A stretch of DNA of 64,000 bases from a virus. The first letter of the stretch is position 1; every line of letters begins with the position of its first letter. Of this stretch, positions 6,886 to 53,689 are shown one piece after another. The notes beneath the pieces were generated by a model. The model was not told where the DNA came from. It saw nothing but the letters and a program-made list of their open reading frames with translations, and did no database searches. Location of the stretch: positions 1-64,000 of the IMG/VR virus record IMGVR_UViG_3300007734_000761; one strand, given 5' to 3'. The translations under genes were made by a program, and so were the position numbers.

Positions 6886-7041
6886 TTAATCTTTTTCTCT
6901 TAAGATTTGATGCTCTAGTGTCAGGAGCATACATAAGCGTTGTATACTCCCTTGTGACACCATAGCAATAAACATAAGTTCTTCATCTGAAGCTTTATTG
7001 AACCATTCAATCAGTTCTCCGTTTCCTACTTTTAATTTCAT
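6886..7041 (-). CDS. small hypothetical protein (51 aa, not in ORF track)
   Basis: MKLKVGNGELIEWFNKASDEELMFIAMVSQGSIQRLCMLLTLEHQILREKD; ATGA overlap with the vWA gene stop. Confidence 0.6.
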   Translation of the reverse strand: MKLKVGNGELIEWFNKASDEELMFIAMVSQGSIQRLCMLLTLEHQILREKD

Positions 7042-8336
7042 CGTTTAATTTGTATTTGTGCTCCAGGTAATTCTGGATTGATTTGAGCTGTACTATTAAT
7101 AACCCAAAGAATTGGTACCATAGGTACTCGTTGTGGAGCAGGTGCATAACCATCAGTCAAGTAAATTAGGTTTTGATATTTACCTGGTGCTTTAAAAATT
7201 TCTTCCATTACTGGATCAAAACTTGTTCCACCACGACCACATACTCTCAATACATCTTGTTTATTACCTTCATATTCATATGTTCTGTGTACATAGCTAT
7301 CACATTCCATAATAGTAACACTAGTACCTGTCTTGTGAATACTATCAATTTCACTGAAGAATTCAAGTAAGTCTTGATCACTTACTGAACCTGATGTATC
7401 AATAGCAACTAGTGTACGACGTTTAGGTTTAATTTTGATAGCTGGACCTGAACCAAATCTGATGTTTGGTTTCTTTCTAGTTTTCTTAGTTTCAATTTTA
7501 GTACTTCTAGTACCAAAACGTCTCAAATATTGCTTCCAGTCAATAACTGCTTCATGTTTTTCAAATAATTTGTCAATGTAACTGCTCAATTCGCCAGGTA
7601 CAGTTCCTCTACTGCGTTGTGTTTGTTGAGCAGCTTCTTTCAATTGATGATCAATTTGTTTTTGAATCAATTTCTTTTCCGCTTCACTGAGATTCTCGAA
7701 TTCCTGCCACAATGTATGTTCGTCAGCACCTGCTCCAGCGTTGAACCATTCTGCAAATCCTTCACCAGATGAGCTACCGTTTCCTCCTTCATTACTAGTA
7801 CCATTATCCTCACCGTCTCCATCTCCATCATTGCCTTCACTATCATTTCCTGAATTTCCATTTTGATTTCCGTTCTGTTTATCATACTCGTCTAGTTCTT
7901 TTTGTAACATTTCATAGTACACTCTAGTACCGGCTTTCAATGGCAATTTCACACCTTTAAATTCACCATCAATAATATCTAATCCTTCCCAAGTAGCACC
8001 TTTCAACTCAGTTGAAATGTATTGATTAATTTCTAAGTCAGCAGCAACGTTCAACAGTCGCTTATTTTCAAACTGATCAAACATTCCTAAATGTTGCATT
8101 GCAATGTGTAACATTTCGTGTTTCAAAATAGCAACTCGTGTCATTGTATCTTGTTTTTCGAAATACTCAGGGTTAACAACCAACTTGAGGTTGATATTGT
8201 CTTTAGCAACACATGCTGTTTGAATACCTTTACTTAGTTCCTTATTAATACCGATTAGAAACAAACCATAAAATGGTTCTTTCAACATTAATGTTCTGCC
8301 CGCTTTGGCAACTTCTTGATAACTGTCTATGCTCAT
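7038..8336 (-). CDS. HEXXH metallopeptidase plus vWA domain protein (DUF2201-like), MoxR partner
   Basis: LKHEMLH motif, acidic G/N/D linker, MIDAS AIDTSGSVS, GRGGTSF, IYLTDG. Confidence 0.9.
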   Translation of the reverse strand: MSIDSYQEVAKAGRTLMLKEPFYGLFLIGINKELSKGIQTACVAKDNINLKLVVNPEYFEKQDTMTRVAILKHEMLHIAMQHLGMFDQFENKRLLNVAADLEINQYISTELKGATWEGLDIIDGEFKGVKLPLKAGTRVYYEMLQKELDEYDKQNGNQNGNSGNDSEGNDGDGDGEDNGTSNEGGNGSSSGEGFAEWFNAGAGADEHTLWQEFENLSEAEKKLIQKQIDHQLKEAAQQTQRSRGTVPGELSSYIDKLFEKHEAVIDWKQYLRRFGTRSTKIETKKTRKKPNIRFGSGPAIKIKPKRRTLVAIDTSGSVSDQDLLEFFSEIDSIHKTGTSVTIMECDSYVHRTYEYEGNKQDVLRVCGRGGTSFDPVMEEIFKAPGKYQNLIYLTDGYAPAPQRVPMVPILWVINSTAQINPELPGAQIQIKR

Positions 8337-11231: not shown

Positions 11232-11590
11232 TTTGTTGGATATAAATTATAAAATTTGTTTGTAATATTTCTTTTTAGTTTAGTAATTTTGATGTTAAAA
11301 CGTCTTGCTGCACATTCAATAACATATGTTTTAGGTTTTTCATTCAATGAACGAATATATTGTTTTAATGCCTTACCAAAGTCATTCTTATAAATACTAA
11401 ATAAGAACCAAAACAATTTCTTTTCATTGTAATCACTAAAAATCCATTTACCACCTTTATAAGTAGCAATTTTAGTGTTGTTTGAAGTGCCTTCATGTCC
11501 ACTGTACAACTCAAAATAATCTCGTTGTGTTTTAAATACTAAGTATTCCGTGTCGCTCAAATTGTAAATAAATGTATTATTAATTTCCAT
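11228..11590 (-). CDS. hypothetical protein
   Basis: 120 aa ORF after a class II promoter. Confidence 0.7.
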   Translation of the reverse strand: MEINNTFIYNLSDTEYLVFKTQRDYFELYSGHEGTSNNTKIATYKGGKWIFSDYNEKKLFWFLFSIYKNDFGKALKQYIRSLNEKPKTYVIECAARRFNIKITKLKRNITNKFYNLYPTK

Positions 11591-11606
11591 AACCTTTTAC
11601 TTTAAT

Positions 11607-11635
11607 ATTGTAATAAAAATCATTTAAAAAGCCAA
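11607..11635 (-). promoter_or_regulatory. class II (middle) promoter
   Basis: TTGGCT-N17-TACAAT. Confidence 0.7.
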
Positions 11636-11641
11636 ATTTTA

Positions 11642-11767
11642 TTAAAAGAAATAACCTTTTACATCCCATCCACCTGTTTCTTTTCTGAAATGGTAAATTG
11701 CTTGATAAAGTGAGTAACTATTTTTATTTGTGCCCCAATTACAGTAAGCTTCTATATCTAACATCAT
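11642..11767 (-). CDS. W/Y-rich microprotein B5 (41 aa)
   Basis: MMLDIEAYCNWGTNKNSYSLYQAIYHFRKETGGWDVKGYFF; ATGA overlap with B4. Confidence 0.75.
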   Translation of the reverse strand: MMLDIEAYCNWGTNKNSYSLYQAIYHFRKETGGWDVKGYFF

Positions 11768-11904
11768 ACAAATAACCAATTATATAAATCCACTCCATCA
11801 TCTTTATGAGTAAAATAATTTGACATTTGAATTAAATAAAATAAATGCCAACTATTACCATATTCACGATACATGTCCATTGTTGTAACTTCCCTGTATT
11901 TCAT
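11764..11904 (-). CDS. W/Y-rich microprotein B4 (46 aa)
   Basis: MKYREVTTMDMYREYGNSWHLFYLIQMSNYFTHKDDGVDLYNWLFV; ATGA overlap with B3. Confidence 0.75.
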   Translation of the reverse strand: MKYREVTTMDMYREYGNSWHLFYLIQMSNYFTHKDDGVDLYNWLFV

Positions 11905-12032
11905 AAAAATAGCCATTTACGTATTCCTTCATTCCGTCCTTTTTTCCAAATTCTAAATATTATTAATATTCCCTGAATACAATGAATATGACCCCATTGT
12001 GAATACATAAAAATTTTATCTTCTTTATTCAC
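11901..12032 (-). CDS. W/Y-rich microprotein B3 (43 aa, GTG start)
   Basis: MNKEDKIFMYSQWGHIHCIQGILIIFRIWKKGRNEGIRKWLFL; GTGA overlap with B2. Confidence 0.7.
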   Translation of the reverse strand: MNKEDKIFMYSQWGHIHCIQGILIIFRIWKKGRNEGIRKWLFL

Positions 12033-12163
12033 AGTGATAATATATTAACAATATTCCATCCATAACTTGTTTTTGAACTTAGAACATTTACATAATAAAT
12101 CATACTTTGTGACGCTTTACCCCTATTATAATCTGCCCACAATTCTACTTTTGAAGTTCTCAT
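12029..12163 (-). CDS. W/Y-rich microprotein B2 (44 aa)
   Basis: MRTSKVELWADYNRGKASQSMIYYVNVLSSKTSYGWNIVNILSL. Confidence 0.72.
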   Translation of the reverse strand: MRTSKVELWADYNRGKASQSMIYYVNVLSSKTSYGWNIVNILSL

Positions 12164-12171
12164 TTTACTTA

Positions 12172-12285
12172 TCAAAAAAACATTTTAATTAAAGTCCATC
12201 CTGTGTCAAATTTACCTGTTAAATAAAGCATGTAATAATGTAAGCATTCTCCATCTTTATTGTTGTAATCAGCCCACCACTTCAT
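12172..12285 (-). CDS. W/Y-rich microprotein B1 (37 aa)
   Basis: MKWWADYNNKDGECLHYYMLYLTGKFDTGWTLIKMFF; shares WADYN and GW with B2. Confidence 0.72.
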   Translation of the reverse strand: MKWWADYNNKDGECLHYYMLYLTGKFDTGWTLIKMFF

Positions 12286-12292
12286 TTTTGTT

Positions 12293-13414
12293 CTAAAAGC
12301 CAACTTTTTTATGTCCATTGTCTGTTACAAATTCTTTTTCATCAATATTGTAAATGTCAGCTAATGTCATTGGTTTAGTTGTAGTTTGTTCGTGTCCTAA
12401 GTGTTTCAACAAATTATTAGTTGATTCAACATCTAAACTATCAAATTTATGTTCAGCAATCAAACGACCTTTACGCAACAATGCTGGGTCAATTTTATTT
12501 CTGTTCATGTTAAAACTACAAATGATTTGAATGTTCATTACATCACCCATAATTCCATCAGTCATATTCAAAATGTTACTTACACCAATACTTGAACCAC
12601 TGCCTGATACCCTGTCACTTACTACACGTTCTGCGTCTTCAATTACTAATACACTGTCAGTGTATCTAGCCAAAAATGGAACAAACTCAGGTGAAGTAAT
12701 ACTTTCAGTCAAAAACGGTGGAACAAAAATTACCTTTTTAGTTTTATTTAATTGACTAACTAGCCATTTGATGTAAGTAGTTTTGCCTGTTCCTGGTTCA
12801 CCGTGCAACAATACAAGTCCTTTATTTTTCTTTTTACTTAATTCAGTAGTAATTTTATTATTTACTTCAGTAAAATTCTTACCATAATTTAATTCCAAAT
12901 CCATTTTAGGATTTTTAATGTCAAATTCTTCTAAGTCAAATCCGTTTCTAGTTTGAACAACTAAGTAAATTTGTGACATGTCTTCCTCTTCCTCTTCAAC
13001 AATGTATTTACTAAGTTTTTTAGTAATTTCTAACATTTCGTCTTTATAAGACTTAGTGAAAAATAATCTAACATCAGCGGAATCTTCTTCAATTTCCTCT
13101 ACATCTTCTAATCTCTTTTTATGGAGTTCTTCAATGTTAAAATGCCAATTACCTTCTACTTCTGCAATTACACAACCATCGTTGTTTTGTTTAATGAATA
13201 CTTTATATTTAGTAGACATTTCACCTTTACTAGATTTTAGTTCTTCAGTAATTAAGGTCCAATCATCAAAAATTTCAATTACACTTTTAATAAAATCGTC
13301 TCTAAAACCAAGTTCACTAGCAACTTCACCATAAGCCATTTGAATGTAAGTTGCTGGTTTGAATTGGCTATCGCTAATAACCCCAATTAAATTTTGTTTG
13401 ATAATTTCTTTCAT
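12293..13414 (-). CDS. AAA family ATPase (BCS1-like clade)
   Basis: LLHGEPGTGKT, VLVIEDAE, ILNMTDG, IDPALLRKGRL. Confidence 0.92.
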   Translation of the reverse strand: MKEIIKQNLIGVISDSQFKPATYIQMAYGEVASELGFRDDFIKSVIEIFDDWTLITEELKSSKGEMSTKYKVFIKQNNDGCVIAEVEGNWHFNIEELHKKRLEDVEEIEEDSADVRLFFTKSYKDEMLEITKKLSKYIVEEEEEDMSQIYLVVQTRNGFDLEEFDIKNPKMDLELNYGKNFTEVNNKITTELSKKKNKGLVLLHGEPGTGKTTYIKWLVSQLNKTKKVIFVPPFLTESITSPEFVPFLARYTDSVLVIEDAERVVSDRVSGSGSSIGVSNILNMTDGIMGDVMNIQIICSFNMNRNKIDPALLRKGRLIAEHKFDSLDVESTNNLLKHLGHEQTTTKPMTLADIYNIDEKEFVTDNGHKKVGF

Positions 13415-13436
13415 ATATAACCTTTTATGCCTTTAT

Positions 13437-13465
13437 AGTATAATAAAAGCTTTTTTAAAAACCAA
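13437..13465 (-). promoter_or_regulatory. class II (middle) promoter driving the AAA ATPase and microprotein array B
   Basis: TTGGTT-N17-TATACT. Confidence 0.75.
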
Positions 13466-13467
13466 AT

Positions 13468-14931: not shown

Positions 14932-14992
14932 ATAAATATTAGAAGAGATTTGTTCTCTTATATAATATAATAAATTTATTTTTAAAGTCCAA
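14932..14992 (-). promoter_or_regulatory. tandem class II promoter and class III late motif upstream of the second sigma
   Basis: TTGGAC-N17-TATATT (14964-14992), small hairpin AAGAGA/TCTCTT, then ATATTTAT (14932-14939). Confidence 0.65.
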
Positions 14993-16884: not shown

Positions 16885-16895
16885 ATATATAAATA

Positions 16896-17888
16896 TTAAA
16901 GTCCAAAGCGACCTTTTTGAGCGTTGTAGTTTTGGGTAATTTCTGATTGTGATAATACCCTATTATACATTTGAAAACTATAAACATTTCCATCTAACGG
17001 ATAATATGTGCCTCCAATTTGTAAACCTGTTAGATTACCCAATCCAGCACTTCCTCCTTCTATTGTTGTTAATAAATTACCATTTTTGTAAAACTTTATA
17101 TTTCCACTTGATAAACCGTTTCCATTATAGGTCATTGTAAAATGAAAAATCTGATTTGTAGGAAATTCACTAGTAGTTTGGGTAAAGTTCGTTTGGACTG
17201 CAGTGCTATTTTTTATAAAATACCAATAACTTTTTTGATCAGTATAAAATACATTTGTAACAATATAATGTGAACTATTGGATGAATTTAAATTAACTAA
17301 ACATTTATCACCAAGAGTATCGAGTTTCATCCATGAACTAAAGGACCAAGCTCTTGTTGACCAATCAATATTACCAAATGGGGAGGTTACTTGAACGTAA
17401 TCATCTACCCCATCAAACACAATTGAACCACTATTAGTAGAGTTAAATGTGGGTCCATTAGTTAATGTTCCATTATTAGAATTTCCACTTAAATCATACC
17501 AAGTAGTTCCTGTAGTTGGATATGAAGGATCGAACCCAGCATCCACATTTAACACTAAACCATTAGTTACAATTCCCTCATAATTAAAATTAACAACTAT
17601 TTTGTCTGTTTGAGTAGCAAAATAAGCTAAACATTGAGCAGCAGTAGTATAATTAGCTCCTGCTATTTGATTAGTTATACTAATTAATTGTGTATCGTTA
17701 GCAGGACAATAAATGCTTGGTCCACCACTAGCTTTATTTAAATAAATTGTGTAACCACCTGCTGGAGGATTAATTCCTGTGTAAAAAGCATTTCCTGTAT
17801 CAGCAGTATTATTGCTGATTAACATGTTGCCTTTTCTAAGACAACCTGCTTCAGTAGCTCCTGTTGAGTATTTTATTCCGTTAGGCAT
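16896..17888 (-). CDS. virion protein with a single LamG-like domain
   Basis: N-terminal domain paralogous to 14982..16604; LamG motifs; ends QNYNAQKGRFGL. Confidence 0.88.
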   Translation of the reverse strand: MPNGIKYSTGATEAGCLRKGNMLISNNTADTGNAFYTGINPPAGGYTIYLNKASGGPSIYCPANDTQLISITNQIAGANYTTAAQCLAYFATQTDKIVVNFNYEGIVTNGLVLNVDAGFDPSYPTTGTTWYDLSGNSNNGTLTNGPTFNSTNSGSIVFDGVDDYVQVTSPFGNIDWSTRAWSFSSWMKLDTLGDKCLVNLNSSNSSHYIVTNVFYTDQKSYWYFIKNSTAVQTNFTQTTSEFPTNQIFHFTMTYNGNGLSSGNIKFYKNGNLLTTIEGGSAGLGNLTGLQIGGTYYPLDGNVYSFQMYNRVLSQSEITQNYNAQKGRFGL

Positions 17889-17958
17889 TATATAATATAA
17901 ATATAAGACACAAGAAGGAGCATACGCTCCTTCAAGTTGACTTATACATTGTAATTTA

Positions 17959-18804
17959 TTATTTTTTAATTATTTTTTTACTTGTTCCATCACTGTAAAT
18001 ATAAATCACCAATTCCTCCTCTTTAACGTTATAAACACGTCTACCCATCATATCATACATTGCAACTAATTTAGGTTCAGGACGAGTTAAATTAACCACA
18101 TTAGATGTTGGTCCTGATTTACACACATCCAAACGTCTAAACATGAAAGTATCTTGTTTAATACACTTATTCCACCATTGTGCAATCATTAATACACGAC
18201 CTGTATCTTTAAACGTAAAATCAGCAAGTCTAGTTTGAGTATAACCTAAAAAGTCATCATCCGGAAAATCGTATTCCATACCAATTTGGTAGTCAGTCAA
18301 ACCGTCCCATTCTTTTTGTGACATAGTATCCATCCAAGGACCTTTATAGAACATCAAGTAATATTCCATACAAGTATCTTTCAAGGGCATGTTTTTAATA
18401 TAGTTCATTTCAAACAAATATCTTTTACAATCAGTTGGTTTTACTTGCCAACCCAATCCAGCACCGGGAAACTGAACGATTTCGATTGGACGATAAAGTG
18501 CCGTATCACACTTCAAACATTTATTCCATACTTTCAAATACAATTTGTATTTACCTTTAACATTAAATTGTACCTCAACAATACCCCTAAAATCCTGAAC
18601 TGTATCAGTTTTCTTAGTTTGAAAATCATACACCATAAACAAATAATCCACACAGGTGTCATCTAATACTTGTCCACTTACATACCACTTGTAGTAATTA
18701 CGTTCATTCCATTGTTGGAGTTTCAATGTGCTCCAATCACATTTTGCGTTCAAACCCAATACTGTCGATAGGGTGAAAAAAAGAATCATTAGTTGTTTTT
18801 TCAT
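17959..18804 (-). CDS. secreted protein with T9SS-like C-terminal sorting region
   Basis: Signal peptide MKKQLMILFFTLSTVLGLNA; C-terminus YDMMGRRV..IYIYSDGTSKKIIKK; two internal beta-rich repeats ending WNKC..DT. Confidence 0.7.
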   Translation of the reverse strand: MKKQLMILFFTLSTVLGLNAKCDWSTLKLQQWNERNYYKWYVSGQVLDDTCVDYLFMVYDFQTKKTDTVQDFRGIVEVQFNVKGKYKLYLKVWNKCLKCDTALYRPIEIVQFPGAGLGWQVKPTDCKRYLFEMNYIKNMPLKDTCMEYYLMFYKGPWMDTMSQKEWDGLTDYQIGMEYDFPDDDFLGYTQTRLADFTFKDTGRVLMIAQWWNKCIKQDTFMFRRLDVCKSGPTSNVVNLTRPEPKLVAMYDMMGRRVYNVKEEELVIYIYSDGTSKKIIKK

Positions 18805-18894
18805 ATTGATTTTTTATTGTTTTATTTGTTATTGATACAGTAATTATAAATATCAAAATTAGTAATATGCTATACGGATTTAGTTTCATAAAAT

Positions 18895-19032
18895 TTAAGT
18901 AAAAAGCCACCCATATAAAGTCCAGTTATCATTTTCTTCACTTTCATTAAAAACATAAGTAAAACTTCTCATGTGAAATCCCATGATTTCACTATCATTC
19001 CATTTTATATAACTATACATATAACTTCTCAT
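18895..19032 (-). CDS. W/Y-rich microprotein A5 (45 aa)
   Basis: MRSYMYSYIKWNDSEIMGFHMRSFTYVFNESEENDNWTLYGWLFT. Confidence 0.78.
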   Translation of the reverse strand: MRSYMYSYIKWNDSEIMGFHMRSFTYVFNESEENDNWTLYGWLFT

Positions 19033-19033
19033 A

Positions 19034-19195
19034 TTATTTTATATCTTCATTAAAAAACCATTGATAGTATGTCCACTTATATGATGGGGGGTTTTTGTGA
19101 AATCTTATAATTGTGCCTTTCATGTCATAGCTATAGAAAGTGCCATCACTCCACCTCATGTATTCACGCATGTCCATTATTCTAAAACTATTCAT
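19034..19195 (-). CDS. W/Y-rich microprotein A4 (53 aa)
   Basis: MNSFRIMDMREYMRWSDGTFYSYDMKGTIIRFHKNPPSYKWTYYQWFFNEDIK. Confidence 0.78.
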   Translation of the reverse strand: MNSFRIMDMREYMRWSDGTFYSYDMKGTIIRFHKNPPSYKWTYYQWFFNEDIK

Positions 19196-19319
19196 ATAAC
19201 CATAAATTAATAGTTTGACCTTTGTTGCCTTCTTTAAATGCTTTAATTGTTGATATTATTCCCCAACCCCAACCAACTGTAGAATTCCAACTAGTGTAAA
19301 GTTCCATTTTAGTTGTCAT
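19188..19319 (-). CDS. W/Y-rich microprotein A3 (43 aa)
   Basis: MTTKMELYTSWNSTVGWGWGIISTIKAFKEGNKGQTINLWLYE. Confidence 0.78.
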   Translation of the reverse strand: MTTKMELYTSWNSTVGWGWGIISTIKAFKEGNKGQTINLWLYE

Positions 19320-19461
19320 ATAACCATTCATAAAAACTAATCCAATCTATAGGAAAATTAATGTGAAATGAAGTAATTGTATCATACATACTGTATCCAT
19401 AGCTTTTACTACTATTCCACGCTGAATATTCTCTTATTTGACTTTTTCCAAAACTACTCAT
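19309..19461 (-). CDS. W/Y-rich microprotein A2 (50 aa)
   Basis: MSSFGKSQIREYSAWNSSKSYGYSMYDTITSFHINFPIDWISFYEWLYDN. Confidence 0.78.
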   Translation of the reverse strand: MSSFGKSQIREYSAWNSSKSYGYSMYDTITSFHINFPIDWISFYEWLYDN

Positions 19462-19597
19462 ATAACCATTCTCTTAAATCCCAATAAACTTTATATTCAT
19501 CATAATTGAATTCACGAACAAAATCCCACATAGAATAACTTCCTGCACCATTCCAATTACTATAAGTCAATATGTGAATATGTGGTGGTTTTTTCAA
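19454..19597 (-). CDS. W/Y-rich microprotein A1 (47 aa, TTG start)
   Basis: MKKPPHIHILTYSNWNGAGSYSMWDFVREFNYDEYKVYWDLREWLYE; TTGA overlap. Confidence 0.75.
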   Translation of the reverse strand: MKKPPHIHILTYSNWNGAGSYSMWDFVREFNYDEYKVYWDLREWLYE

Positions 19598-19716
19598 AAT
19601 CTTTTTTTATCTGTTATCCAATTTACTGAGTATACTGCACATCCATCTTCATACACGGCCCATCTCAACATTTTCAGCCATAATTTTTCTTTATTTTCCT
19701 TGTAATTCGTAGTCAA
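19594..19716 (-). CDS. Trp-rich microprotein A0 (40 aa, TTG start, divergent)
   Basis: MTTNYKENKEKLWLKMLRWAVYEDGCAVYSVNWITDKKRF; its stop overlaps the A1 start. Confidence 0.5.
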   Translation of the reverse strand: MTTNYKENKEKLWLKMLRWAVYEDGCAVYSVNWITDKKRF

Positions 19717-19981
19717 AATAATATCCTAAATAATTTGTTCTTACAATTTTAGATATAATGTAATCTGGGTGTTCCTTTAACATACATTGAAGACCATCAT
19801 CATACCAAAAACCTTTGTCTATAAAAAACAATGAACTATTCTTTACTATACTTTCCATATAGTACTTAGTTTGGCTACTCCAAGGTGAAGTTCTTGAATT
19901 GATATTATTGTCAAGATCCCAACCACGCAGTGCGTCTTGTGGAGAATAGCCAAACTGAGTCCAATATCTCTTTTTAGTCAT
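19691..19981 (-). CDS. aromatic-rich hypothetical protein heading microprotein array A
   Basis: 96 aa, W/Y/F-rich. Confidence 0.6.
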   Translation of the reverse strand: MTKKRYWTQFGYSPQDALRGWDLDNNINSRTSPWSSQTKYYMESIVKNSSLFFIDKGFWYDDGLQCMLKEHPDYIISKIVRTNYLGYYFDYELQGK

Positions 19982-20468
19982 TCATTTGATATTCAATGCC
20001 CAACAAATCAGCTACTCGTTTGTTGATTTCATGAATTTCAACTTCAATTAGTTCTTTGCGTTCGTCAGTGCAATTATCATCTAACCATTCTTCAGCTAAA
20101 TACTTACGAGCAACAAAGTTTTTTTCAATCAAAGCTGCTACTTTGACGTCCATCCAATGAACAATGTCATTGCCTTCTTTTGTTTTACCTAACTCAACTT
20201 TAGTTTCATGAGTAAGAAATTCTTCTTCCTCAAGGTAAACAAAGAAATCTACTACTTCTTTCATAGTCTCAGCATCCATTTCATACCAATCCATAATGTT
20301 TGCTTGACTCAACGTTTGAACTTGTTTCATAGTTTCTTTATCGTCCAAGTTACAGTTTTTCAACATTTGAATTCCCATTTTACTGGCTTGTTTGTCTTTA
20401 CTCAAAATCATTGATTTGAGTGTTTGAATTGACTCACTGTCAAATGTATGTACATTTTTCCTTTTCAT
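19974..20468 (-). CDS. hypothetical protein; N-terminus paralogous to the C-terminal domain of 5032..6027
   Basis: See alignment under 5032..6027. Confidence 0.75.
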   Translation of the reverse strand: MKRKNVHTFDSESIQTLKSMILSKDKQASKMGIQMLKNCNLDDKETMKQVQTLSQANIMDWYEMDAETMKEVVDFFVYLEEEEFLTHETKVELGKTKEGNDIVHWMDVKVAALIEKNFVARKYLAEEWLDDNCTDERKELIEVEIHEINKRVADLLGIEYQMND

Positions 20469-20484
20469 AACCTTTTACAGTAAT

Positions 20485-20513
20485 ATTATAATAAAACTTT
20501 TTTAAAAAGCCAA
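20485..20513 (-). promoter_or_regulatory. class II (middle) promoter driving the operon containing microprotein array A
   Basis: TTGGCT-N17-TATAAT. Confidence 0.78.
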
Positions 20514-20516
20514 ATT

Positions 20517-21422
20517 TTACAAAAAATCTTTTTTATATTTCATAACAGCCAACTCCTTTGCTTTACATTCCATCATTACATCTACATCTAAACCATAAGT
20601 CTCACACTTGTTGAGATAATAATCACTATGTGCTTGCATTTTAACTTTTAGTCCTTCATTTAGGGCTTTAGATTCACTGTAGTGAACAATGGGTTTAATG
20701 TCACCCCATGTTGATACAGCGAGTCGTAGTGCTTCTTCTTCGGATTGGCCGCCTGTACAAAATTTATGATGGTGGTAGTCGAATACGATTGGTATGTTCG
20801 CATTTTTGAATATTCCTTCGAATAGTTCTTTAGTTGAGTACATATTCCCTTTGTCGTCGTTTTCGATGGTAAGTCTACTTTTAATTGCATCTGGTAAATT
20901 GTTGAAATTCTTTAGAAATGTTTTAATGGCTTGTTGTTTATCACCATACGTTGCGCCCATATGTATGTTGATTTTATTGTAATGTGTTCGACTCAAACCC
21001 ATTAAGTCCATAATGTCACTGTGCATTTGTAAGTCACTTACACTATTATCAATAACAGACTGATGAGGACTAGTAAGAATACAATATTGGCCTGGATGCA
21101 TTGTAAGTCTCATTCCATGTTTTGTAGCAAATTCACCACAACGAGCTAAAACATCTTTAATTTCATTAAAATCTTTAAAACTAAACCAATCAACTTTATT
21201 TCCCCAAGGAATCATATTGCTAGACATTCGAAATACAAGAATGTCATTTTCATAGTTCCAGTGAAGATATTTTTCAAGATCTCTAATATTTTGAACAGCG
21301 AGTTCACTACAATATTCTAAACCTTTTTTGTCTAGAGTTGCTTTCTTTAAACTTCTGTTTGTTGTAACACCTTCTTTTTTGAGTGTTTCATTAATGCAAG
21401 CGTAACCATAATTTTTATTCAT
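20517..21422 (-). CDS. uvdE: UV damage endonuclease
   Basis: GYACIN, FRMSS, RLTMHPGQY, INIHMG, RLTIENDD, VFDYHHH, HYSES, AHSD, MMECKAKE. Confidence 0.95.
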   Translation of the reverse strand: MNKNYGYACINETLKKEGVTTNRSLKKATLDKKGLEYCSELAVQNIRDLEKYLHWNYENDILVFRMSSNMIPWGNKVDWFSFKDFNEIKDVLARCGEFATKHGMRLTMHPGQYCILTSPHQSVIDNSVSDLQMHSDIMDLMGLSRTHYNKINIHMGATYGDKQQAIKTFLKNFNNLPDAIKSRLTIENDDKGNMYSTKELFEGIFKNANIPIVFDYHHHKFCTGGQSEEEALRLAVSTWGDIKPIVHYSESKALNEGLKVKMQAHSDYYLNKCETYGLDVDVMMECKAKELAVMKYKKDFL

Positions 21423-42895: not shown

Positions 42896-42909
42896 ATTAA
42901 TAAATATTG

Positions 42910-42984
42910 TGGACCCTGTAGGGTTTGAACCTACGACCCCCTGATTATGAGTCAGGTGCTACTGACCAACTGAGCTAAGGGTCC
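42910..42984 (-). tRNA. tRNA with CAT anticodon, likely Ile2 (lysidine type)
   Basis: GGACCCTTAGCTCAG..CCTGA-CTCATAA-TCAGG..GGTTCAAA. Confidence 0.9.
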
Positions 42985-42990
42985 ATTTAG

Positions 42991-43064
42991 TGATTCCGAC
43001 AGGATTCGAACCTGTGACCTACAGCTTAGAAGGCTGTTGCTCTATCCAGCTGAGCTACGAAACC
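42991..43064 (-). tRNA. tRNA-Arg(TCT)
   Basis: ACAGC-CTTCTAA-GCTGT; T-loop GGTTCGAATCC. Confidence 0.95.
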
Positions 43065-43069
43065 ATTTG

Positions 43070-43143
43070 CTCCCCGAGCTGGACTCGAACCAGCGACCTA
43101 ATGATTAACAGTCATTTGCTCTAACCTACTGAGCTATCGAGGA
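43070..43143 (-). tRNA. tRNA-Asn(GTT)
   Basis: AATGA-CTGTTAA-TCATT. Confidence 0.95.
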
Positions 43144-43160
43144 ATCTGTCTTCAGCGGCG

Positions 43161-43231
43161 TTACCCCCCAGAGATTCGAACTCCAATTAACTGGACCAAA
43201 ACCAGTTGTCCTGCCGTTAGACGAGAGGGTA
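43161..43231 (-). tRNA. tRNA-Gln(TTG)
   Basis: ACTGG-TTTTGGT-CCAGT. Confidence 0.93.
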
Positions 43232-43236
43232 ATATT

Positions 43237-43311
43237 TGCTAGGTCACCACCTCCACCTAGCATGAGGAGATTTAACGTGATTTCTTTCTTGCACTAGAAG
43301 AACAGGCCTCC
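43237..43311 (-). ncRNA. unassigned structured RNA (two hairpins)
   Basis: GGAG..CTCC (43266-43311) and TGCTAGGT-GGAGGTGGTG-ACCTAGCA (43237-43262). Confidence 0.5.
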
Positions 43312-43343
43312 TTTGTTCACGAACCCGAATTGGTATTAAGGTG

Positions 43344-43430
43344 CGGAAGATGTAGGATTCGAACCTACGGAACCTTTTAAAGTTCAACAGTTTTCAAGAC
43401 TGCCGCGATCGACCACTCTGCCAATCTTCC
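43344..43430 (-). tRNA. tRNA-Ser(TGA)
   Basis: GCAGT-CTTGAAA-ACTGT with long variable arm. Confidence 0.95.
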
Positions 43431-43434
43431 GTAT

Positions 43435-43503
43435 AGTGGAGCGTCACTTATTTCTAAGTTATCCACTTCGGTTACGTTATCTTGCGATAAGAGGCTTTAC
43501 CGA
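43435..43503 (-). ncRNA. unassigned structured RNA (two GNRA-capped hairpins)
   Basis: TCGGT..TTATC-GCAA-GATAA..ACCGA abutting AGTGGA..ACTTA-GAAA-TAAGT..TCCACT. Confidence 0.6.
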
Positions 43504-43511
43504 GCCCAAGG

Positions 43512-43583
43512 TAGTCAGGACAGGATTCGAACCTGTATTTGCAGACCCTTTCGAGCCCGTGGTTACCATTCCGCCACCTGACT
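43512..43583 (-). ncRNA. tRNA-like RNA lacking a canonical anticodon loop
   Basis: Acceptor AGTCAGG/CCTGACT-A; T arm ACAGG-TTCGAAT-CCTGT; anticodon arm replaced by CGGGCTC-GAAA-GGGTCTG. Confidence 0.75.
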
Positions 43584-43587
43584 AAAA

Positions 43588-43731
43588 AACCCTAGCAGTT
43601 TCTGTTGATCAGGCAGGCTTACTAGGGGTTGTTACTGGTTATACCCGAAAGCTTTCCCAGTAACTCGAAGACCATCGGGCAGATCTTACGGGATGCTGGA
43701 TGGTACATTGCCTACAGATACTATCTATAGG
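43588..43731 (-). ncRNA. unassigned structured RNA (four consecutive hairpins)
   Basis: Stems at 43711-43731, 43671-43704, 43631-43664, 43590-43627. Confidence 0.6.
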
Positions 43732-43733
43732 GG

Positions 43734-43807
43734 TGGTTGCGGACGACAGACTCGAACTGCCAATTTAAGGTTATGAGCCTTATGTGTTACCATTACACTA
43801 ATCCACA
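43734..43807 (-). tRNA. tRNA-Met(CAT) with encoded CCA
   Basis: TAAGG-CTCATAA-CCTTA; ends GTCCGCA-A-CCA. Confidence 0.88.
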
Positions 43808-43814
43808 ATATTTG

Positions 43815-43887
43815 AGCCACCTGTAGAAATCGAATCCACAACCTACTGAGTACAAATCAGTTGCTCTACCAGTTGAGCTAAGGTGGC
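43815..43887 (-). tRNA. tRNA-Thr(TGT)
   Basis: ACTGA-TTTGTAC-TCAGT. Confidence 0.93.
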
Positions 43888-43901
43888 TTGTAAAAGAACT
43901 A

Positions 43902-44096
43902 TTACTTCTTTAACTCTACGATTTCTGTATGAAGTGAATCAGCGTGAGCATTAGCACTCTCAATAAGAGAATCAATATTCATAGAATCAGAACAAGTTGA
44001 GTCAGCACATTTCAAAGTGTCAACATTAGAAGTAGAGGTTTCGTTTGAGCAAGAAGCCAAAGTAACCAAGGCAGCGATAAATAATACTTTTTTCAT
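43902..44096 (-). CDS. small lipoprotein
   Basis: MKKVLFIAALVTLASC lipobox; late motif upstream. Confidence 0.8.
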   Translation of the reverse strand: MKKVLFIAALVTLASCSNETSTSNVDTLKCADSTCSDSMNIDSLIESANAHADSLHTEIVELKK

Positions 44097-44123
44097 TTGA
44101 TATAAATATATAGTTTTTTAATT

Positions 44124-44531
44124 TTATTTGTTTTTACCCGTATATGTTTCTGTTTGTGAGTGACAGTTTGGACATAAGAATCTTAAATTTTCAATTCTAT
44201 GATCCCAACTCTTCCCATTTATGTGGTCTAAATGAAGAGATATTGGTTTATTATTCCATTCATTTAACCCACAATTACAACATACATATGATAACAAGTT
44301 CTCTTTTAGAATCCTATTTTTAATACCTCTTCTAGATTGTATTTCTGAAATATCCTTTTTATCAGGAATAGGTTTCGATTTTGTTCTCCAACCTTTTTCA
44401 GGATTATACAATCCTTCTTTTTGAGCTCTTGTTTTAAATGTATTAAAATGCCATCCTAACTTTGAACAAGCTTCTTGCATTGAATCTGATGATTCAATTG
44501 CTTCTTTAAGTTTATCTACATCGTAATTCAT
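44124..44531 (-). mobile_element. HNH homing endonuclease in the tRNA cluster
   Basis: CCNCG..LHLDHING...DHRIENLRFLCPNCHSQT. Confidence 0.9.
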
Positions 44532-44535
44532 TTAG

Positions 44536-44619
44536 TACTGTAGGTGAGACTCGAACTCACACAACCCTGCGGGTTACTGCCTCTTAAGGGCAGCGCGTCT
44601 ACCATTCCGCCACTACAGC
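44536..44619 (-). tRNA. tRNA-Leu(TAA)
   Basis: CTGCC-CTTAAGA-GGCAG with long variable arm. Confidence 0.95.
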
Positions 44620-44646
44620 ATTTTTTTATTCTTATCTTATGACCAT

Positions 44647-44679
44647 ATTATAAAAAAAGGTTTGGTAAAAACCAAACCT
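44647..44679 (-). terminator. fused intrinsic terminator and class II promoter heading the tRNA cluster
   Basis: AGGTTTGGT-TTTT-ACCAAACCT plus T run; TTGGTT-N17-TATAAT. Confidence 0.78.
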
Positions 44680-51458: not shown

Positions 51459-51803
51459 TTATTCGTTATTTAAAGTGTTTGATATTGCTATTCCATCTTC
51501 TTCATCAACTTTTTGAACTAACATTTTATCTCGGTCTTCTGAATTAAACCAGTAATCAATTACTTTGTTTAAGTTACCTACGAAAGCACCTAATAAAATA
51601 AGTAACATTTCTTTCCAAGATTCAATAATTTCAATCTTAGCAAAAATAGCTACGTTAATTCCCAAAACAATAAAAAAGAATAATCCTAATACAATTGCTG
51701 TAATCTTCCAACGATTAACTTGCATTTGTTGTAACATGTAATAGAAACGATTTTTATCGTCTACTTTTACATAATCTGATTTGAATAAATTTCCTAATTT
51801 CAT
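51459..51803 (-). CDS. two-TM membrane protein
   Basis: Two hydrophobic helices; LLGAFVG..VIDYWF. Confidence 0.75.
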   Translation of the reverse strand: MKLGNLFKSDYVKVDDKNRFYYMLQQMQVNRWKITAIVLGLFFFIVLGINVAIFAKIEIIESWKEMLLILLGAFVGNLNKVIDYWFNSEDRDKMLVQKVDEEDGIAISNTLNNE

Positions 51804-53689
51804 TTATTTATAATTATTTTAGAAGTTGAAATTTTAGTATCTGTTTTTACTGATAAAAAGTAAAAACCATCTTCAAGTTTAGTTAAATTAACAACATACT
51901 TATATTCACCAACAGGCATTTTAGTGTTGATAACTTCCATAACTTTTCTGCCTACTAAGTCACTAACTGCAACTTCTGTTTGAGATTCTTGATCTACTCT
52001 GAATTGAAGAGTAATTTCACCACTATTTGGATTAGGGAATACAATAAGATCTTCTAATTCGGTTAATTTAACAGGCTTATTAATTCTTCTTACTTCAATT
52101 ACTCCCATTGCTGGAGTAATGTTCATGTCTCTTGCATCATTACCTCCAACAAACTTAGGTCCGGTCCAAATAGCAGCACTTGACCATTCTTCTTGTGGTT
52201 TTTTGGCGATAAATTGCATTACTAAAATTTGTTCACCGTCGTTGATTAACTGATTTCCTTTTAAGTCAGCTGCACCGAAAGCAACCACTCCGTCAGAAGG
52301 GTTAGTATATGAAGTCCAGTTCATCATTTTTTCAGTCAAATCGATTTTCTTGAACTCAAGTAATGCTGTGTCGTATTTTAACTCTAATTGAACTGCCCCT
52401 AATTGTTTTCCGTTAGTAAGCATTTTAACAGGAACGTTAACTAAGTTACCTTCGTCAACTTTAACTTTAGGCATATTAACCTCAATAGTCTCAGTTACAT
52501 TATCGTATTGAACTGTGTTGTCGATGATGTAGTTTTTAGCATTAACGGGGTTAATAATCTTAATAGGAGTCAAACGAGCCATTTTAAAGCCTGTATTATT
52601 TGCATCACCCTTAACTGCTACATAGTAAGTAATAGAATCTTTACCATCAATTGAGTAATTAAAGTTATTAATAGTAGCGTAAGTACCTGTTAAGTTAGTA
52701 GCTGATCCGTTGATTGCATTGTATTCGGCAACTGTGAAGAACATTACATCCTTCTTGCCATTAGGCCAAGCCGTGAATCTACCTGCCAATCTTCCATATA
52801 CTGAATAAACGTCTGCAATACTAATTGAACCATCAGTGTTGTTTACATCCATTGTATAATAATCAAAGCCTGAAGGAGTGTATTGTGCTAAGATAGACTG
52901 GTTAATCTTTTGAGCGTCTGCAGTTGAAATAACAGATCCAGGAGTCATTGTATCTCCTTTAACCACCATTCTAACATCCCAGTAAGTAGTATCTAAGAAT
53001 TTTCTAAATACAACATGACCTAATGAGTTAGTTGCTTTAGCTTCTACTTGAGTCCAAGATCCACCTGGTGCTTTCTTTTCTAAAGACACCCACAAGTTTT
53101 TAGCATCTGAACCAGTAACGTTCTTAAACTTAGCAGCAAAGCGTAATACTTTTTGATTGAAACGACCACCGTAAGAATAAACTACTAAAGTAGTATCGTT
53201 ACCAAAGTTAGTAGCTGCTTTGTTTGCGAATGATTTAACACCTGCAACTTTCAAAGTCTTAATAGAATCTAAATTGTTCCATACCGAGCTTCCGGCATGA
53301 GTAAAAGTCAAATCAAAAGTAGCACCGTTTGAATAATTAAATGTTGAACTAGTTCCTGTGTAAACTAGAGTAACAGTTAAGAATCCTTGAGCATTACTAT
53401 CCACATATTGAAGATATTGGTCAGTAGCAGAAATCTTTAATGAAGGAACAACTGCTGTAAATGCAGTGTTGTCATAAAATACTCTGTACTGCATACCAGT
53501 GATCTTTTCAGATGTAGAAGTATTGTAGAAGTGTAAAGGGGCAACAGTTTGCCCGGCAGTAGTAGTTGCTACTTGATAACCAGAATCAATTACCACCCAG
53601 TGCCCTGTTCCAGGTGATGTTGCTGACGATTGTGCTGATGCTTCGAAAATGGCTAAAGCCGTTAATAAGAATGCGATTATTTTTTTCAT
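51800..53689 (-). CDS. T9SS cargo protein with cohesin-like and dockerin-like domains
   Basis: Signal peptide; cohesin-like ITGMQYRVFYD and VNVPV..LGAVQLELKYD..LEF; dockerin-like ISTADA..DVN..GSISIADV; CTD FPNP..DLVGRKV..L..GFYFL..KIIINK. Confidence 0.88.
   Translation of the reverse strand: MKKIIAFLLTALAIFEASAQSSATSPGTGHWVVIDSGYQVATTTAGQTVAPLHFYNTSTSEKITGMQYRVFYDNTAFTAVVPSLKISATDQYLQYVDSNAQGFLTVTLVYTGTSSTFNYSNGATFDLTFTHAGSSVWNNLDSIKTLKVAGVKSFANKAATNFGNDTTLVVYSYGGRFNQKVLRFAAKFKNVTGSDAKNLWVSLEKKAPGGSWTQVEAKATNSLGHVVFRKFLDTTYWDVRMVVKGDTMTPGSVISTADAQKINQSILAQYTPSGFDYYTMDVNNTDGSISIADVYSVYGRLAGRFTAWPNGKKDVMFFTVAEYNAINGSATNLTGTYATINNFNYSIDGKDSITYYVAVKGDANNTGFKMARLTPIKIINPVNAKNYIIDNTVQYDNVTETIEVNMPKVKVDEGNLVNVPVKMLTNGKQLGAVQLELKYDTALLEFKKIDLTEKMMNWTSYTNPSDGVVAFGAADLKGNQLINDGEQILVMQFIAKKPQEEWSSAAIWTGPKFVGGNDARDMNITPAMGVIEVRRINKPVKLTELEDLIVFPNPNSGEITLQFRVDQESQTEVAVSDLVGRKVMEVINTKMPVGEYKYVVNLTKLEDGFYFLSVKTDTKISTSKIIINK

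What the first reader, a model, noticed from the sequence alone, without database searches (positions are those of the whole stretch)
18895..19716. Hidden tandem array A of paralogous Trp/Tyr-rich microproteins
Seen: this apparently empty 0.8 kb is tiled by six head-to-tail ORFs of 40-53 aa, all below the ORF-track cutoff, with overlapping or adjacent stops and starts. Five share a clear pattern despite little other identity. Near the N-terminus they have Y-x-x-W-[NS] (YSNWN, YSAWN, YTSWN, YMRWS, YIKWN). A central aromatic/hydrophobic stretch ends in F. The C-terminus carries W-[LF]-[YF] (WDLREWLYE, WISFYEWLYD, INLWLYE, WTYYQWFF, WTLYGWLF). At three junctions the same DNA, TGGTTATATGA, encodes WLY and supplies the next ATG, a duplication signature. 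Inference: a conserved aromatic mini-scaffold with hypervariable positions, expanded by tandem duplication. It could be a panel of inhibitors of variable host targets (anti-defence) or of membrane-active peptides. I do not recognise the family.
Basis: partly seen in the sequence, partly recalled or inferred. Interest (0 to 1): 0.88.

Follow-up and report, generated by a model that had tools for sequence, protein, structure and literature searches.

The report
Cassette array of novel phage microproteins
A T4-like phage of Bacteroidota carries rows of tiny related genes (about 45 codons each) that are truly protein-coding, belong to no described family, and are gained and lost one whole gene at a time between almost identical phages; their function is still unknown.

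Summary
On the minus strand, 18895-19716 is tiled by six head-to-tail small ORFs. Five of them (A1-A5, 45-53 aa) are paralogues with the stated Trp/Tyr motifs. The sixth (A0) is a separate, conserved leader micro-ORF.

- **Real genes.** The same genes, in the same order and frames, occur in related uncultured phages. An exhaustive profile search finds only about 15 small phage proteins and no annotated relative.
- **Array B is the same family.** Array B (11642-12318) sits in one operon behind a classic-clade AAA+ ATPase.
- **Fast turnover.** Ten contigs with an identical flanking gene hold 4, 5 or 7 units. Whole units are present or absent, and the one indel I aligned has its breakpoints in the 11-base junction repeat. 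That repeat encodes the C-terminal W-L-Y-[DE] of one unit and the ATG of the next.
- **Selection.** Scaffold residues change 3-4 times more slowly than the other residues, which evolve at a near-neutral rate.
- **Regulation.** Both arrays lie behind a rare sigma-70-like promoter cassette, found four times in the genome.
- **Fold.** The prediction, three short helices, has low confidence.

Function is unproven. My best guess is a panel of early intracellular binders, possibly linked to the AAA ATPase. The scan has noted analogous microprotein arrays of other families in other phages.

The parts
20466..20522 (-). Sigma-70-like promoter and leader cassette (TTGGCT, 17 nt, TATAAT, then an AAAGG-containing leader and the ATG) heading the array A operon
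   Evidence: It is conserved upstream of the 164-aa gene even in L028, where the upstream neighbour is a different gene. The strict pattern occurs only 4 times in the 176-kb genome.
19974..20468 (-). 164-aa gene of unknown family, first gene of the operon and a constant companion of array A
   Evidence: It is present with the array in the window, L007, L028/L029, L030 and L042-L051. It is absent, together with the family, from G001-G004.
19691..19981 (-). 96-aa aromatic-rich gene of unknown family, second constant companion
19594..19716 (-). A0, a conserved leader micro-ORF that is not a family member. Its likely true start is the internal ATG at 19671. Its stop overlaps the A1 start (TTGA).
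19454..19597 (-). A1 microprotein, 47 aa
   Evidence: Orthologues occur in L007, L030 and L042-L051.
19309..19461 (-). A2 microprotein, 50 aa; an 8-nt stop/start overlap with A1
   Evidence: This unit is present or absent among relatives.
19188..19331 (-). A3 microprotein, 47 aa
19034..19195 (-). A4 microprotein, 53 aa
18895..19032 (-). A5 microprotein, 45 aa, last gene of the operon
   Evidence: Its orthologue cluster is the most widespread (P0003, seen on 19 contigs).
19458..19468 (-). Junction repeat TGGTTATATGA (A1/A2). It encodes W-L-Y-[DE] and holds the next ATG.
19316..19326 (-). Junction repeat (A2/A3)
19192..19202 (-). Junction repeat (A3/A4)
13412..13466 (-). Second copy of the promoter and leader cassette, heading the AAA ATPase / array B operon
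   Evidence: The same cassette lies upstream of the AAA gene in L032.
12293..13414 (-). 373-aa classic-clade AAA+ ATPase. Its stop lies 26 nt inside B1.
   Evidence: The overlap with the first microprotein is the same in L027.
11642..12318 (-). Array B: five more, more diverged, members of the family
11588..11636 (-). Third copy of the promoter and leader cassette, directly after array B and heading the next operon (120-aa gene)

Best explanation
Array A is the distal part of a probably early operon: promoter cassette, 164-aa gene, 96-aa gene, A0, then A1-A5. It encodes five paralogous, soluble, cytoplasmic proteins of 45-53 aa from an undescribed family. The family is confined to one clade of T4-like phages of Bacteroidota.

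**The protein.** Each is a small aromatic-core domain, predicted with low confidence to be three short helices. About 15 scaffold positions are kept; the remaining, presumably surface, positions change freely.

**Translation.** The genes are translated in a chain. At three junctions the stop lies 5 nt after the next ATG.

**Turnover.** The 11-base junction encodes the C-terminal W-L-Y-[DE] of one unit and the start of the next. It also serves as the homology for unequal recombination, so whole, still intact units are added or removed. Copy number runs from 3 to about 12 between close relatives.

**Proposed function.** I read the products as a diversified panel of small intracellular binders made early in infection, each unit type aimed at a different target (host takeover or counter-defence).

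**Shown:** coding, family, operon layout, cassette turnover, the scaffold/variable split.
**Inferred:** early expression, fold, binding function.
For: **Coding and conservation**
- Six ORFs tile 99.9% of the region, against 13% in shuffles.
- L007 has the same units in the same order, with frames and motifs kept and 37-76% aa identity.
- Position-specific orthologue groups A1, A2, A3, A4 and A5 recur across contigs.
- Scaffold positions show conservative replacements (Y/F/W, I/V/M/L) and synonymous codon changes.
- Of 46 units on ten further contigs, one looks truncated.

**Family is new and narrow**
- Only about 15 representatives, of 45-65 aa, among 1.84 billion proteins, and all those named are 'hypothetical'.
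- No Pfam or PHROG family.
- No cultured phage carries it.

**Turnover**
- Ten contigs with an identical 164-aa flank protein carry 4, 5 or 7 units in a fixed order, with whole units missing.
- L030 has 3 units; L028/L029 have 11-12.
- In L043 versus L049 the breakpoints of the A2 indel lie in the junction repeat.
- The 11-mer occurs only at array junctions.

**Selection**
- Pooled dN/dS is 0.65-0.76 in the array and 0.31-0.33 in the flanks.
- Scaffold pN is 0.08-0.10; variable pN is 0.27-0.35 with dN/dS about 1.1.

**Soluble**
- GRAVY is negative and there is no hydrophobic segment.

**Regulation**
- A promoter cassette conserved across different genomic contexts.
- Only 4 copies in the genome. 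Two head the two array operons and one heads the tRNA cluster.

**Fold**
- AlphaFold2 gives three helices on two alignments, at pLDDT 65 and 68.5.
Against: - No direct evidence of translation, of any target or of any phenotype.
- Pooled dN/dS has a confidence interval reaching 1.2, and substitutions are flat across codon positions. Most residues are therefore hardly constrained, which also fits weakly selected or dispensable genes.
- The fold model is of low confidence and matches nothing above noise.
- Early timing rests only on a consensus-type promoter match. Bacteroidota promoters differ from the E. coli consensus (my own knowledge).
- Part of the conserved tail (the Y-[DE] codons) may be kept for the next gene's start codon and not for the protein. 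Terminal units end in F-T instead.
- Array B shares an operon with an AAA+ ATPase, which a free-standing binder model does not explain.
Confidence: 0.45

Rival explanations
1. The microproteins are partners of the neighbouring classic-clade AAA+ ATPase. They could be exchangeable adaptors that bring different targets to it, or clients that it remodels or translocates. The conserved aromatic C-terminal helix would be the common docking handle.
For: - Array B follows the AAA gene with no promoter cassette between them. B1 starts 26 nt before the AAA stop, and the same overlap is present in L027.
- In the L028-L032 lineage the large A-type array ends 52 nt before the AAA gene.
- In the more distant phage L034, ten head-to-tail small ORFs end 11 nt before the AAA start. 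At least the last four form a different family with an aromatic-acidic tail.
- Iyer et al. 2021 (PMC7824862) proposed that phage BCS1-type AAA+ proteins move folded proteins. The nearest cultured homologue of this ATPase is annotated as carrying a BCS1 domain.
- Earlier notes of this scan describe other microprotein arrays beside AAA ATPases. These are leads only.
Against: - The ATPase occurs without any array in L033, L035-L041 and PA5oct.
- Array A is usually 1.5-5.5 kb from the ATPase and has its own promoter cassette, even where the two are adjacent.
- The whole neighbourhood is a hyperplastic region with many alternative inserts, so adjacency may only reflect a shared insertion hot spot.
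- The L034 array shows no detectable homology to this family (hhalign E 0.11).
Confidence: 0.22
2. The arrays are largely dispensable by-products of a recombination-prone junction. Units duplicate and delete because the junction repeat makes this easy, and they persist under weak selection without distinct functions.
For: - Near-neutral dN/dS at two thirds of the positions.
- Units are lost freely between phages with identical flanks.
- One truncated copy, the A4b-type unit in L042.
- Array B members in the window have degraded motifs.
- Four large phage genomes that share the mobile 281-aa gene have none of the family.
Against: - In 30% G+C DNA a 45-codon frame stays open by chance about 2% of the time (my estimate). 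Yet 45 of the 46 units on contigs L042-L051 are intact, and I saw no broken unit in the other arrays.
- Paralogues that have diverged to about 30% identity still keep the same 15 scaffold residues.
- Each unit type is retained as a recognisable orthologue across phages.
Confidence: 0.15
3. The microproteins are virion cargo, packaged into the head and injected with the DNA like T4 internal proteins. The conserved motif would serve as the packaging signal.
For: - T-even internal-protein genes are a polymorphic cassette locus with one conserved short signal (my own knowledge).
- Iyer et al. suggested that BCS1-like ATPases load folded proteins into heads.
- In the A2 and A4 groups a hydrophobic-x-Glu tripeptide precedes the conserved Tyr.
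Against: - No conserved N-terminal targeting sequence across the family. The A1, A3 and A5 groups lack the Glu site.
- The operon has a sigma-70-like promoter cassette shared with the tRNA cluster.
- It lies among repair and accessory genes, not head genes.
Confidence: 0.07
4. The ORFs are not translated. The region would be a non-coding repeat, a decayed or frameshifted single repeat protein, a RiPP precursor set, or a set of membrane-active peptides.
For: - Flat substitution pattern over codon positions.
- A constant +1 frame offset between units, which could in principle suggest read-through.
Against: - Frame maintenance across the units seen in 17 contigs, chemically conservative replacements, and unit-wise indels that always restore intact ORFs.
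- Every unit has its own start and stop, and in L028 several are separated by short spacers.
- No long fused homologue exists. The only long hits are low-complexity repeats matching a fragment of the profile.
- No Cys/Ser/Thr-rich core, and no maturation enzyme among the annotated neighbours.
- No hydrophobic segment.
Confidence: 0.04

Closest known systems
Hyperplastic regions of T4-type phages, with ORFan genes shuffled through PeSL (promoter-early stem-loop) cassettes (Arbiol et al. 2010, PMC2839356)
   Same: - T4-type phage.
- Small non-essential genes of unknown function in a region that differs between near-identical phages.
- Gain and loss by recombination between short repeated elements.
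- A repeated sigma-70-like promoter cassette bounds the units of the region.
   Different: - Here the recombining repeat inside the arrays is a coding junction (the C-terminal codons plus the next ATG), not a promoter/terminator cassette.
- No stem-loop terminator was found beside the promoter cassettes.
- The shuffled genes are paralogues of one family, not unrelated ORFans.
T-even internal protein (ip) cassette locus: IPI, IPII, IPIII with the capsid targeting sequence (my own knowledge)
   Same: - A polymorphic row of small accessory genes that share one short conserved peptide and differ elsewhere.
- At least one member, IPI, is a counter-defence protein.
   Different: - The conserved parts here are an internal aromatic scaffold and a C-terminal helix, not an N-terminal signal cleaved after Glu.
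- The promoter looks early.
- No evidence of packaging.
Anti-CRISPR and other anti-defence gene clusters of phages
   Same: - Small soluble proteins without detectable homologues.
- Clustered, rapidly exchanged between close relatives, probably made early.
   Different: - Those clusters hold unrelated proteins and are recognised through a conserved regulator (aca) or by experiment.
- Here there is one paralogous family, no regulator was recognised, and there is no functional test.
BCS1-type and other classic-clade AAA+ ATPases of large phages (Iyer et al. 2021, PMC7824862), with the microprotein arrays this scan has noted beside them in other phages
   Same: - An AAA+ ATPase of the same broad kind: 40% identity over 231 residues to the PA5oct-group ATPase.
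- It shares an operon with a row of diverged microproteins.
   Different: - No BCS1_N domain or membrane anchor was detected in this ATPase.
- The arrays in the other phages belong to other sequence families.
- The link has not been tested experimentally in any of these cases.

Membership tests
Any Pfam-A or PHROGs family | Significant match of the members to a curated profile | tested here: not met
   Of 23 members scanned against Pfam and 49 against PHROGs, no family matched more than 2 members, and the best single E-value was 0.001.
EF-hand (weak top rows of the fold searches) | 12-residue Ca-binding loop with acidic or polar ligands at positions 1, 3, 5 and 12, and Gly at position 6 | tested here: not met
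   By inspection, the loop after the conserved Trp varies in length and has no conserved acidic ligands; where a Gly occurs it is out of register.
EF-hand (weak top rows of the fold searches) | Helix-loop-helix fold match above background | tested here: inconclusive
   Z is 3.1 or below and TM 0.44-0.55, on a model of pLDDT 68.5. Foldseek against the PDB gave no match.
T4 internal proteins (capsid targeting sequence) | Conserved N-terminal signal of about 10 residues ending in Glu, cleaved by the prohead protease | tested here: not met
   The N-termini are the most variable part. A hydrophobic-x-Glu site before the conserved Tyr exists only in the A2 and A4 groups.
T4 internal proteins (capsid targeting sequence) | Presence in the virion | not testable with these tools
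   The phage is uncultured.
PeSL-type mobile regulatory cassettes | Repeated sigma-70-like early promoter flanking the variable genes | tested here: met
   A cassette of about 55 nt lies at 20466-20522, 13412-13466 and 11588-11636, and also upstream of the tRNA cluster.
PeSL-type mobile regulatory cassettes | Stem-loop terminator joined to the promoter | tested here: not met
   The terminator scan of 17800-20600 found one site, at 17914-17933, not beside a cassette. The other two cassettes were not scanned.
PeSL-type mobile regulatory cassettes | Gene gain and loss with breakpoints in the cassette | tested here: not met
   In the one unit indel aligned (L043 against L049), the breakpoints lie in the coding junction 11-mer, not in the promoter cassette.
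BCS1-type AAA+ ATPase (for the neighbouring 373-aa gene) | BCS1_N domain and N-terminal membrane anchor in front of one AAA module | tested here: inconclusive
   - Pfam finds PF00004 but no BCS1_N.
- Among solved structures, AFG2 and Cdc48 score 53 bits and BCS1 24.6 bits.
- No hydrophobic N-terminus.
- A cultured homologue is annotated as having a BCS1 domain.
Proteasome-activator HbYX tail | Hydrophobic-Tyr-X as the last three residues, and a 20S proteasome in the host | tested here: not met
   Many members end in L-Y-[DE], but others carry 1-5 extra residues or end in F-T. Bacteroidota are not known to have a 20S proteasome (my own knowledge).

The most novel reading that the evidence does not exclude
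The arrays would be a swappable library of mini-binders of about 45 residues built on one aromatic three-helix scaffold. The constant C-terminal helix would dock each unit onto the phage's AAA+ ATPase. The phage could then retarget an unfoldase or translocase to new host proteins, defence proteins for example, simply by recombining whole units at a junction that keeps every product in frame.
Probability: 0.15. Interest if true: 0.85.

Novelty: new variant of a known kind. Interest (0 to 1): 0.55.

Why it matters
If the units are binders of host or defence proteins, this is a natural, compact and evolvable scaffold of 45 residues, small enough for chemical synthesis. Its target range is edited by a very simple genetic device: a junction that is at once a protein tail, the next start codon and a recombination site.

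It also adds a well-documented case to a pattern this scan keeps meeting, rows of diverged microproteins in large phages, often beside AAA+ ATPases. These genes fall below usual gene-calling cut-offs, so they are largely missing from annotation.

Even if the function stays unknown, the locus is a sharp marker of very recent divergence between co-occurring phage strains.

Tried and rejected
- **blastn of 17900-20500 against cultured phages:** no match.
- **tblastn of A5 against the same collection:** no match.
- **Loci found through the 281-aa downstream gene:** 23 of the 24 lacked the array. That gene is mobile and sits in other contexts, so these loci say nothing about array loss.
- **Four large genomes that share the 281-aa gene (G001-G004):** neither the family nor the 164-aa gene.
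- **ESM Atlas by features, for A2 and for the 164-aa protein:** nothing above 0.84.
- **Fold searches (PDB Foldseek, PDB wide, Atlas):** no match above background.
- **Complex prediction, AAA ATPase with a microprotein:** no answer (score 0.00; no support and no evidence against).
- **RNA runs:** no RNA holder listed. Four wastewater libraries labelled RNA-Seq hold small shares. Laying two of them gave only short contig pieces (19515-19912 and 18876-18980) that show nothing about transcription.
- **hhalign of the family against the L034 aromatic-tail array:** E 0.11, so homology is not shown.
- **Loci found through the 120-aa gene:** different upstream content and no arrays.
- **Ideas considered and dropped:**
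  - HbYX proteasome-docking tail (position not fixed).
  - EF-hand (loop does not fit).
  - Pup-like tag (no G-G-[QE] end).
  - RiPP precursors.
  - Membrane peptides.
  - One long protein made by +1 frameshifting (no slippery context, and units are gained and lost singly).
- **Per-gene dN/dS of 1.9 for A3:** rests on too few sites to claim positive selection.
Full report
**What the window is**

The window is the first 64 kb of a 176,311-base IMG/VR virus record judged complete. It has about 30% G+C, and nearly all genes lie on the minus strand.
- It has a T4-type family B DNA polymerase, a cluster of nine tRNAs and many accessory genes.
- A phage protein carries a T9SS type A sorting domain (TIGR04183, 42 bits against a cut-off of 23).

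**The observation**

On the minus strand, 18895-19716 is tiled by six ORFs: A0 (40 aa) and A1-A5 (47, 50, 47, 53 and 45 aa).
- The motifs read exactly as the finder wrote them. Y12, W15, F32 and W46 are invariant in the five paralogues.
- The 11-mer TGGTTATATGA is found three times in the 64 kb, only at the A1/A2, A2/A3 and A3/A4 junctions. There the stop lies 5 nt after the next ATG, giving an 8-nt overlap.
- A4 and A5 are separated by one base.
- A0 and A1 overlap as TTGA, where the orthologue has ATGA.
- One-strand ORF cover of 99.9% was never approached in 2000 dinucleotide-preserving shuffles (mean 13%, maximum 69%).
- The DNA of the five units is only about 63% identical per column, so these are old paralogues and not a fresh repeat.

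**Are they genes?**

The nearest relative with the locus is L007, whose flanking genes are 55-78% identical at the protein level. It has A0 and five units in the same order. All are open, with in-frame indels and 37-76% aa identity.
- A profile of A1-A5 was searched against one representative of every 50% cluster of about 15 billion proteins. It returned 17 hits. Fifteen are 45-65-aa proteins with the same pattern. Two are long low-complexity repeats that match only a fragment of the profile.
- A second search gave 24 clusters; all those that carry a name are called 'hypothetical'.
- Nothing matches in Pfam or PHROGs, and no cultured phage has a member.
- At scaffold positions the replacements are chemically conservative (Y/F/W, I/V/M/L), and Tyr, Phe and Asn codons vary synonymously. 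That is a signature of selection on the protein.
- In a 49-member tree, the window's units group with their positional counterparts from other contigs. L028 shows a lineage-specific triplication.

**Array B is the same family**

- The A-only profile finds B5 at E 3e-5 in the phage's own six-frame translation.
- It finds P0011 at E 1e-6 in the whole library.
- P0011 lies directly behind the C-terminus of the AAA ATPase homologue on L027. It overlaps the ATPase stop by 26 nt, just as B1 does in the window, and its N-terminus resembles that of B1.
- B1-B4 in the window are more degraded.

**Turnover**

This is the most informative result.
- Ten contigs that encode the identical 164-aa flank protein (P0037) carry 4, 5 or 7 family members.
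- The unit types keep one order: X, A1, A2, A3, A4b, A4, A5. Whole units are present or absent.
- The window has A1-A2-A3-A4-A5. L030 has A1-A3-A5. The L028/L029 lineage has 11-12 units.
- Aligning L043 (no A2) with L049 (with A2) shows identical flanks. The indel's two ends fall in the junction repeat, leaving a chimeric but intact start for A3.
- The 11-mer occurs in the fetched loci only inside these arrays.
- The junction therefore does three jobs. It encodes the protein tail W-L-Y-[DE], it holds the next start codon, and it is the homology for unequal recombination that always regenerates intact, coupled genes.

**Selection**

- Pooled Nei-Gojobori dN/dS is 0.65-0.76 for the array, with bootstrap intervals reaching 1.2. 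It is 0.31-0.33 for the two upstream flank genes.
- Between L007 and L030 the flanks differ by dS 0.10 but the arrays by dS 0.42. The arrays are therefore also exchanged by recombination.
- I split columns by family-wide conservation. The 16 scaffold columns have pN 0.08-0.10. The remaining columns have pN 0.27-0.35 and dN/dS about 1.1.
- This supports 'conserved scaffold, free surface'. It does not prove positive selection.

**Regulation**

- The only intergenic gap upstream of the array is the 48 nt before the 164-aa gene. It holds TTGGCT, 17 nt, TATAAT, followed by a conserved leader.
- The element is conserved in L007 and L030. It is also conserved in L028, where the upstream neighbour is a different gene.
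- Near-identical copies precede the AAA ATPase gene and the 120-aa gene just after array B.
- The strict pattern occurs only four times in 176 kb. The fourth copy lies upstream of the tRNA cluster.
- From the cassette positions I infer two operons:
  - cassette, 164, 96, A0, A1-A5
  - cassette, AAA, B1-B5
- A different short motif, ATATTTAT, sits a few bases before about 19 gene starts, including the 281-aa gene after A5. No copy of it lies on the coding (minus) strand between 18854 and 24536.
- Early timing is my inference from the promoter type.

**Fold and chemistry**

- The proteins are hydrophilic (GRAVY -0.3 to -0.95), 17-27% aromatic, almost free of Cys, and range in pI from 4.6 to 9.3. 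They have no signal peptide or membrane segment.
- AlphaFold2 gave three short helices joined by variable loops on both alignments, 23 and 49 sequences, at pLDDT 65 and 68.5. The conserved aromatics are spaced as on helix faces (my inspection).
- Structure searches gave nothing above background. The weak top rows are EF-hand-like helix-loop-helix units, but the loop does not fit the Ca-binding consensus.

**Context and the ATPase question**

- Array A always travels with the 164-aa and 96-aa genes and with A0. None of these has a known family.
- The 373-aa ATPase is of the classic clade. The best solved relatives are AFG2, Cdc48 and Rpt. It matches phrog_14322, of unknown function.
- Its nearest cultured homologues are ATPases of PA5oct-like jumbo phages, one of which is annotated as having a BCS1 domain.
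- It heads the array B operon.
- In the L032 lineage the large A-type array ends 52 nt before it, but a promoter cassette lies in that gap.
- In the more distant L034, ten head-to-tail small ORFs lie directly upstream of it. At least the last four are of another family with an aromatic-acidic tail.
- Against a link:
  - The ATPase stands without arrays in L033, L035-L041 and PA5oct.
  - The whole neighbourhood is a hyperplastic region with many alternative inserts.
- I therefore keep the ATPase-partner model as the main rival and not as the best reading.
- Iyer et al. proposed that phage BCS1-type ATPases move folded proteins.
- Earlier notes of this scan describe other microprotein arrays beside AAA ATPases. 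Those are leads, not evidence.

**Comparison with known systems**

- The behaviour resembles the hyperplastic regions of T4-type phages, where repeated promoter/terminator cassettes mediate modular shuffling of ORFans (Arbiol et al. 2010). It also resembles the polymorphic internal-protein locus of T-even phages (my own knowledge).
- It differs in three ways:
  - The shuffled genes are paralogues of one new family.
  - The recombining element inside the array is a coding junction.
  - No packaging signal is present.

**Verdict**

- It is a new protein family showing a new variant of a known kind of phage genome plasticity.
- Its function is open. My split:
  - 0.45 a panel of early intracellular binders
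  - 0.22 partners of the AAA ATPase
  - 0.15 weakly selected by-products
  - the remainder to the minor readings (virion cargo, non-coding or fused product) and to possibilities not listed.

Noticed in passing
window 20483-20514, 13435-13466, 11605-11636, 44645-44676 (minus strand): A sigma-70-like promoter cassette (TTTGG[CT]TTTT, spacer, TA[TC]A[AC]TAT) occurs only four times in the 176-kb genome, all within this window. Three of the copies continue into a conserved AAAGG-containing leader. The four copies head the array A operon, the AAA/array B operon, the 120-aa operon and the tRNA cluster.
   Followed up: partly
window 42909-44619: Cluster of nine tRNA genes on the minus strand. One ARAGORN call at 43510-43583 has an odd two-base anticodon loop.
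   Followed up: no
window 17959-18804 and loci L002-L025: The 281-aa Cys-rich protein with a signal peptide, directly after array A, is a mobile gene. Homologues of 44-84% identity sit in quite different neighbourhoods in more than 20 phage contigs. Its C-terminus looks like a T9SS sorting tail but did not reach the search threshold.
   Followed up: partly
window, about 19 sites, for example 18846-18853, 17897-17904, 16889-16896 and 14932-14939 (minus strand): The octamer ATATTTAT lies a few bases upstream of many gene starts: 23 sites against 13.4 expected. Its position so close to the ATG suggests a promoter for very short leaders or an initiation signal.
   Followed up: no
L034:2441-3974: A more distant phage (AAA ATPase 55% identical) has ten head-to-tail ORFs of 45-58 aa directly upstream of the ATPase. 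The last four share a tail ending in Y-Y-E-L and show no detectable homology to the family studied here.
   Followed up: partly
window 51800-53689: A phage-encoded 629-aa protein ends in a T9SS type A sorting domain (TIGR04183), pointing to a Bacteroidota host.
   Followed up: partly
L042:4593-4790: The A4b-type unit on this contig stops seven codons early while the junction repeat is still present downstream. It is the only apparently damaged unit among 46 on ten contigs.
   Followed up: no
window 7038-8336: A 432-aa protein with a putative metallopeptidase domain plus a VWA-like DUF2201 domain, a pair often partnered with MoxR-type ATPases in large phages.
   Followed up: no
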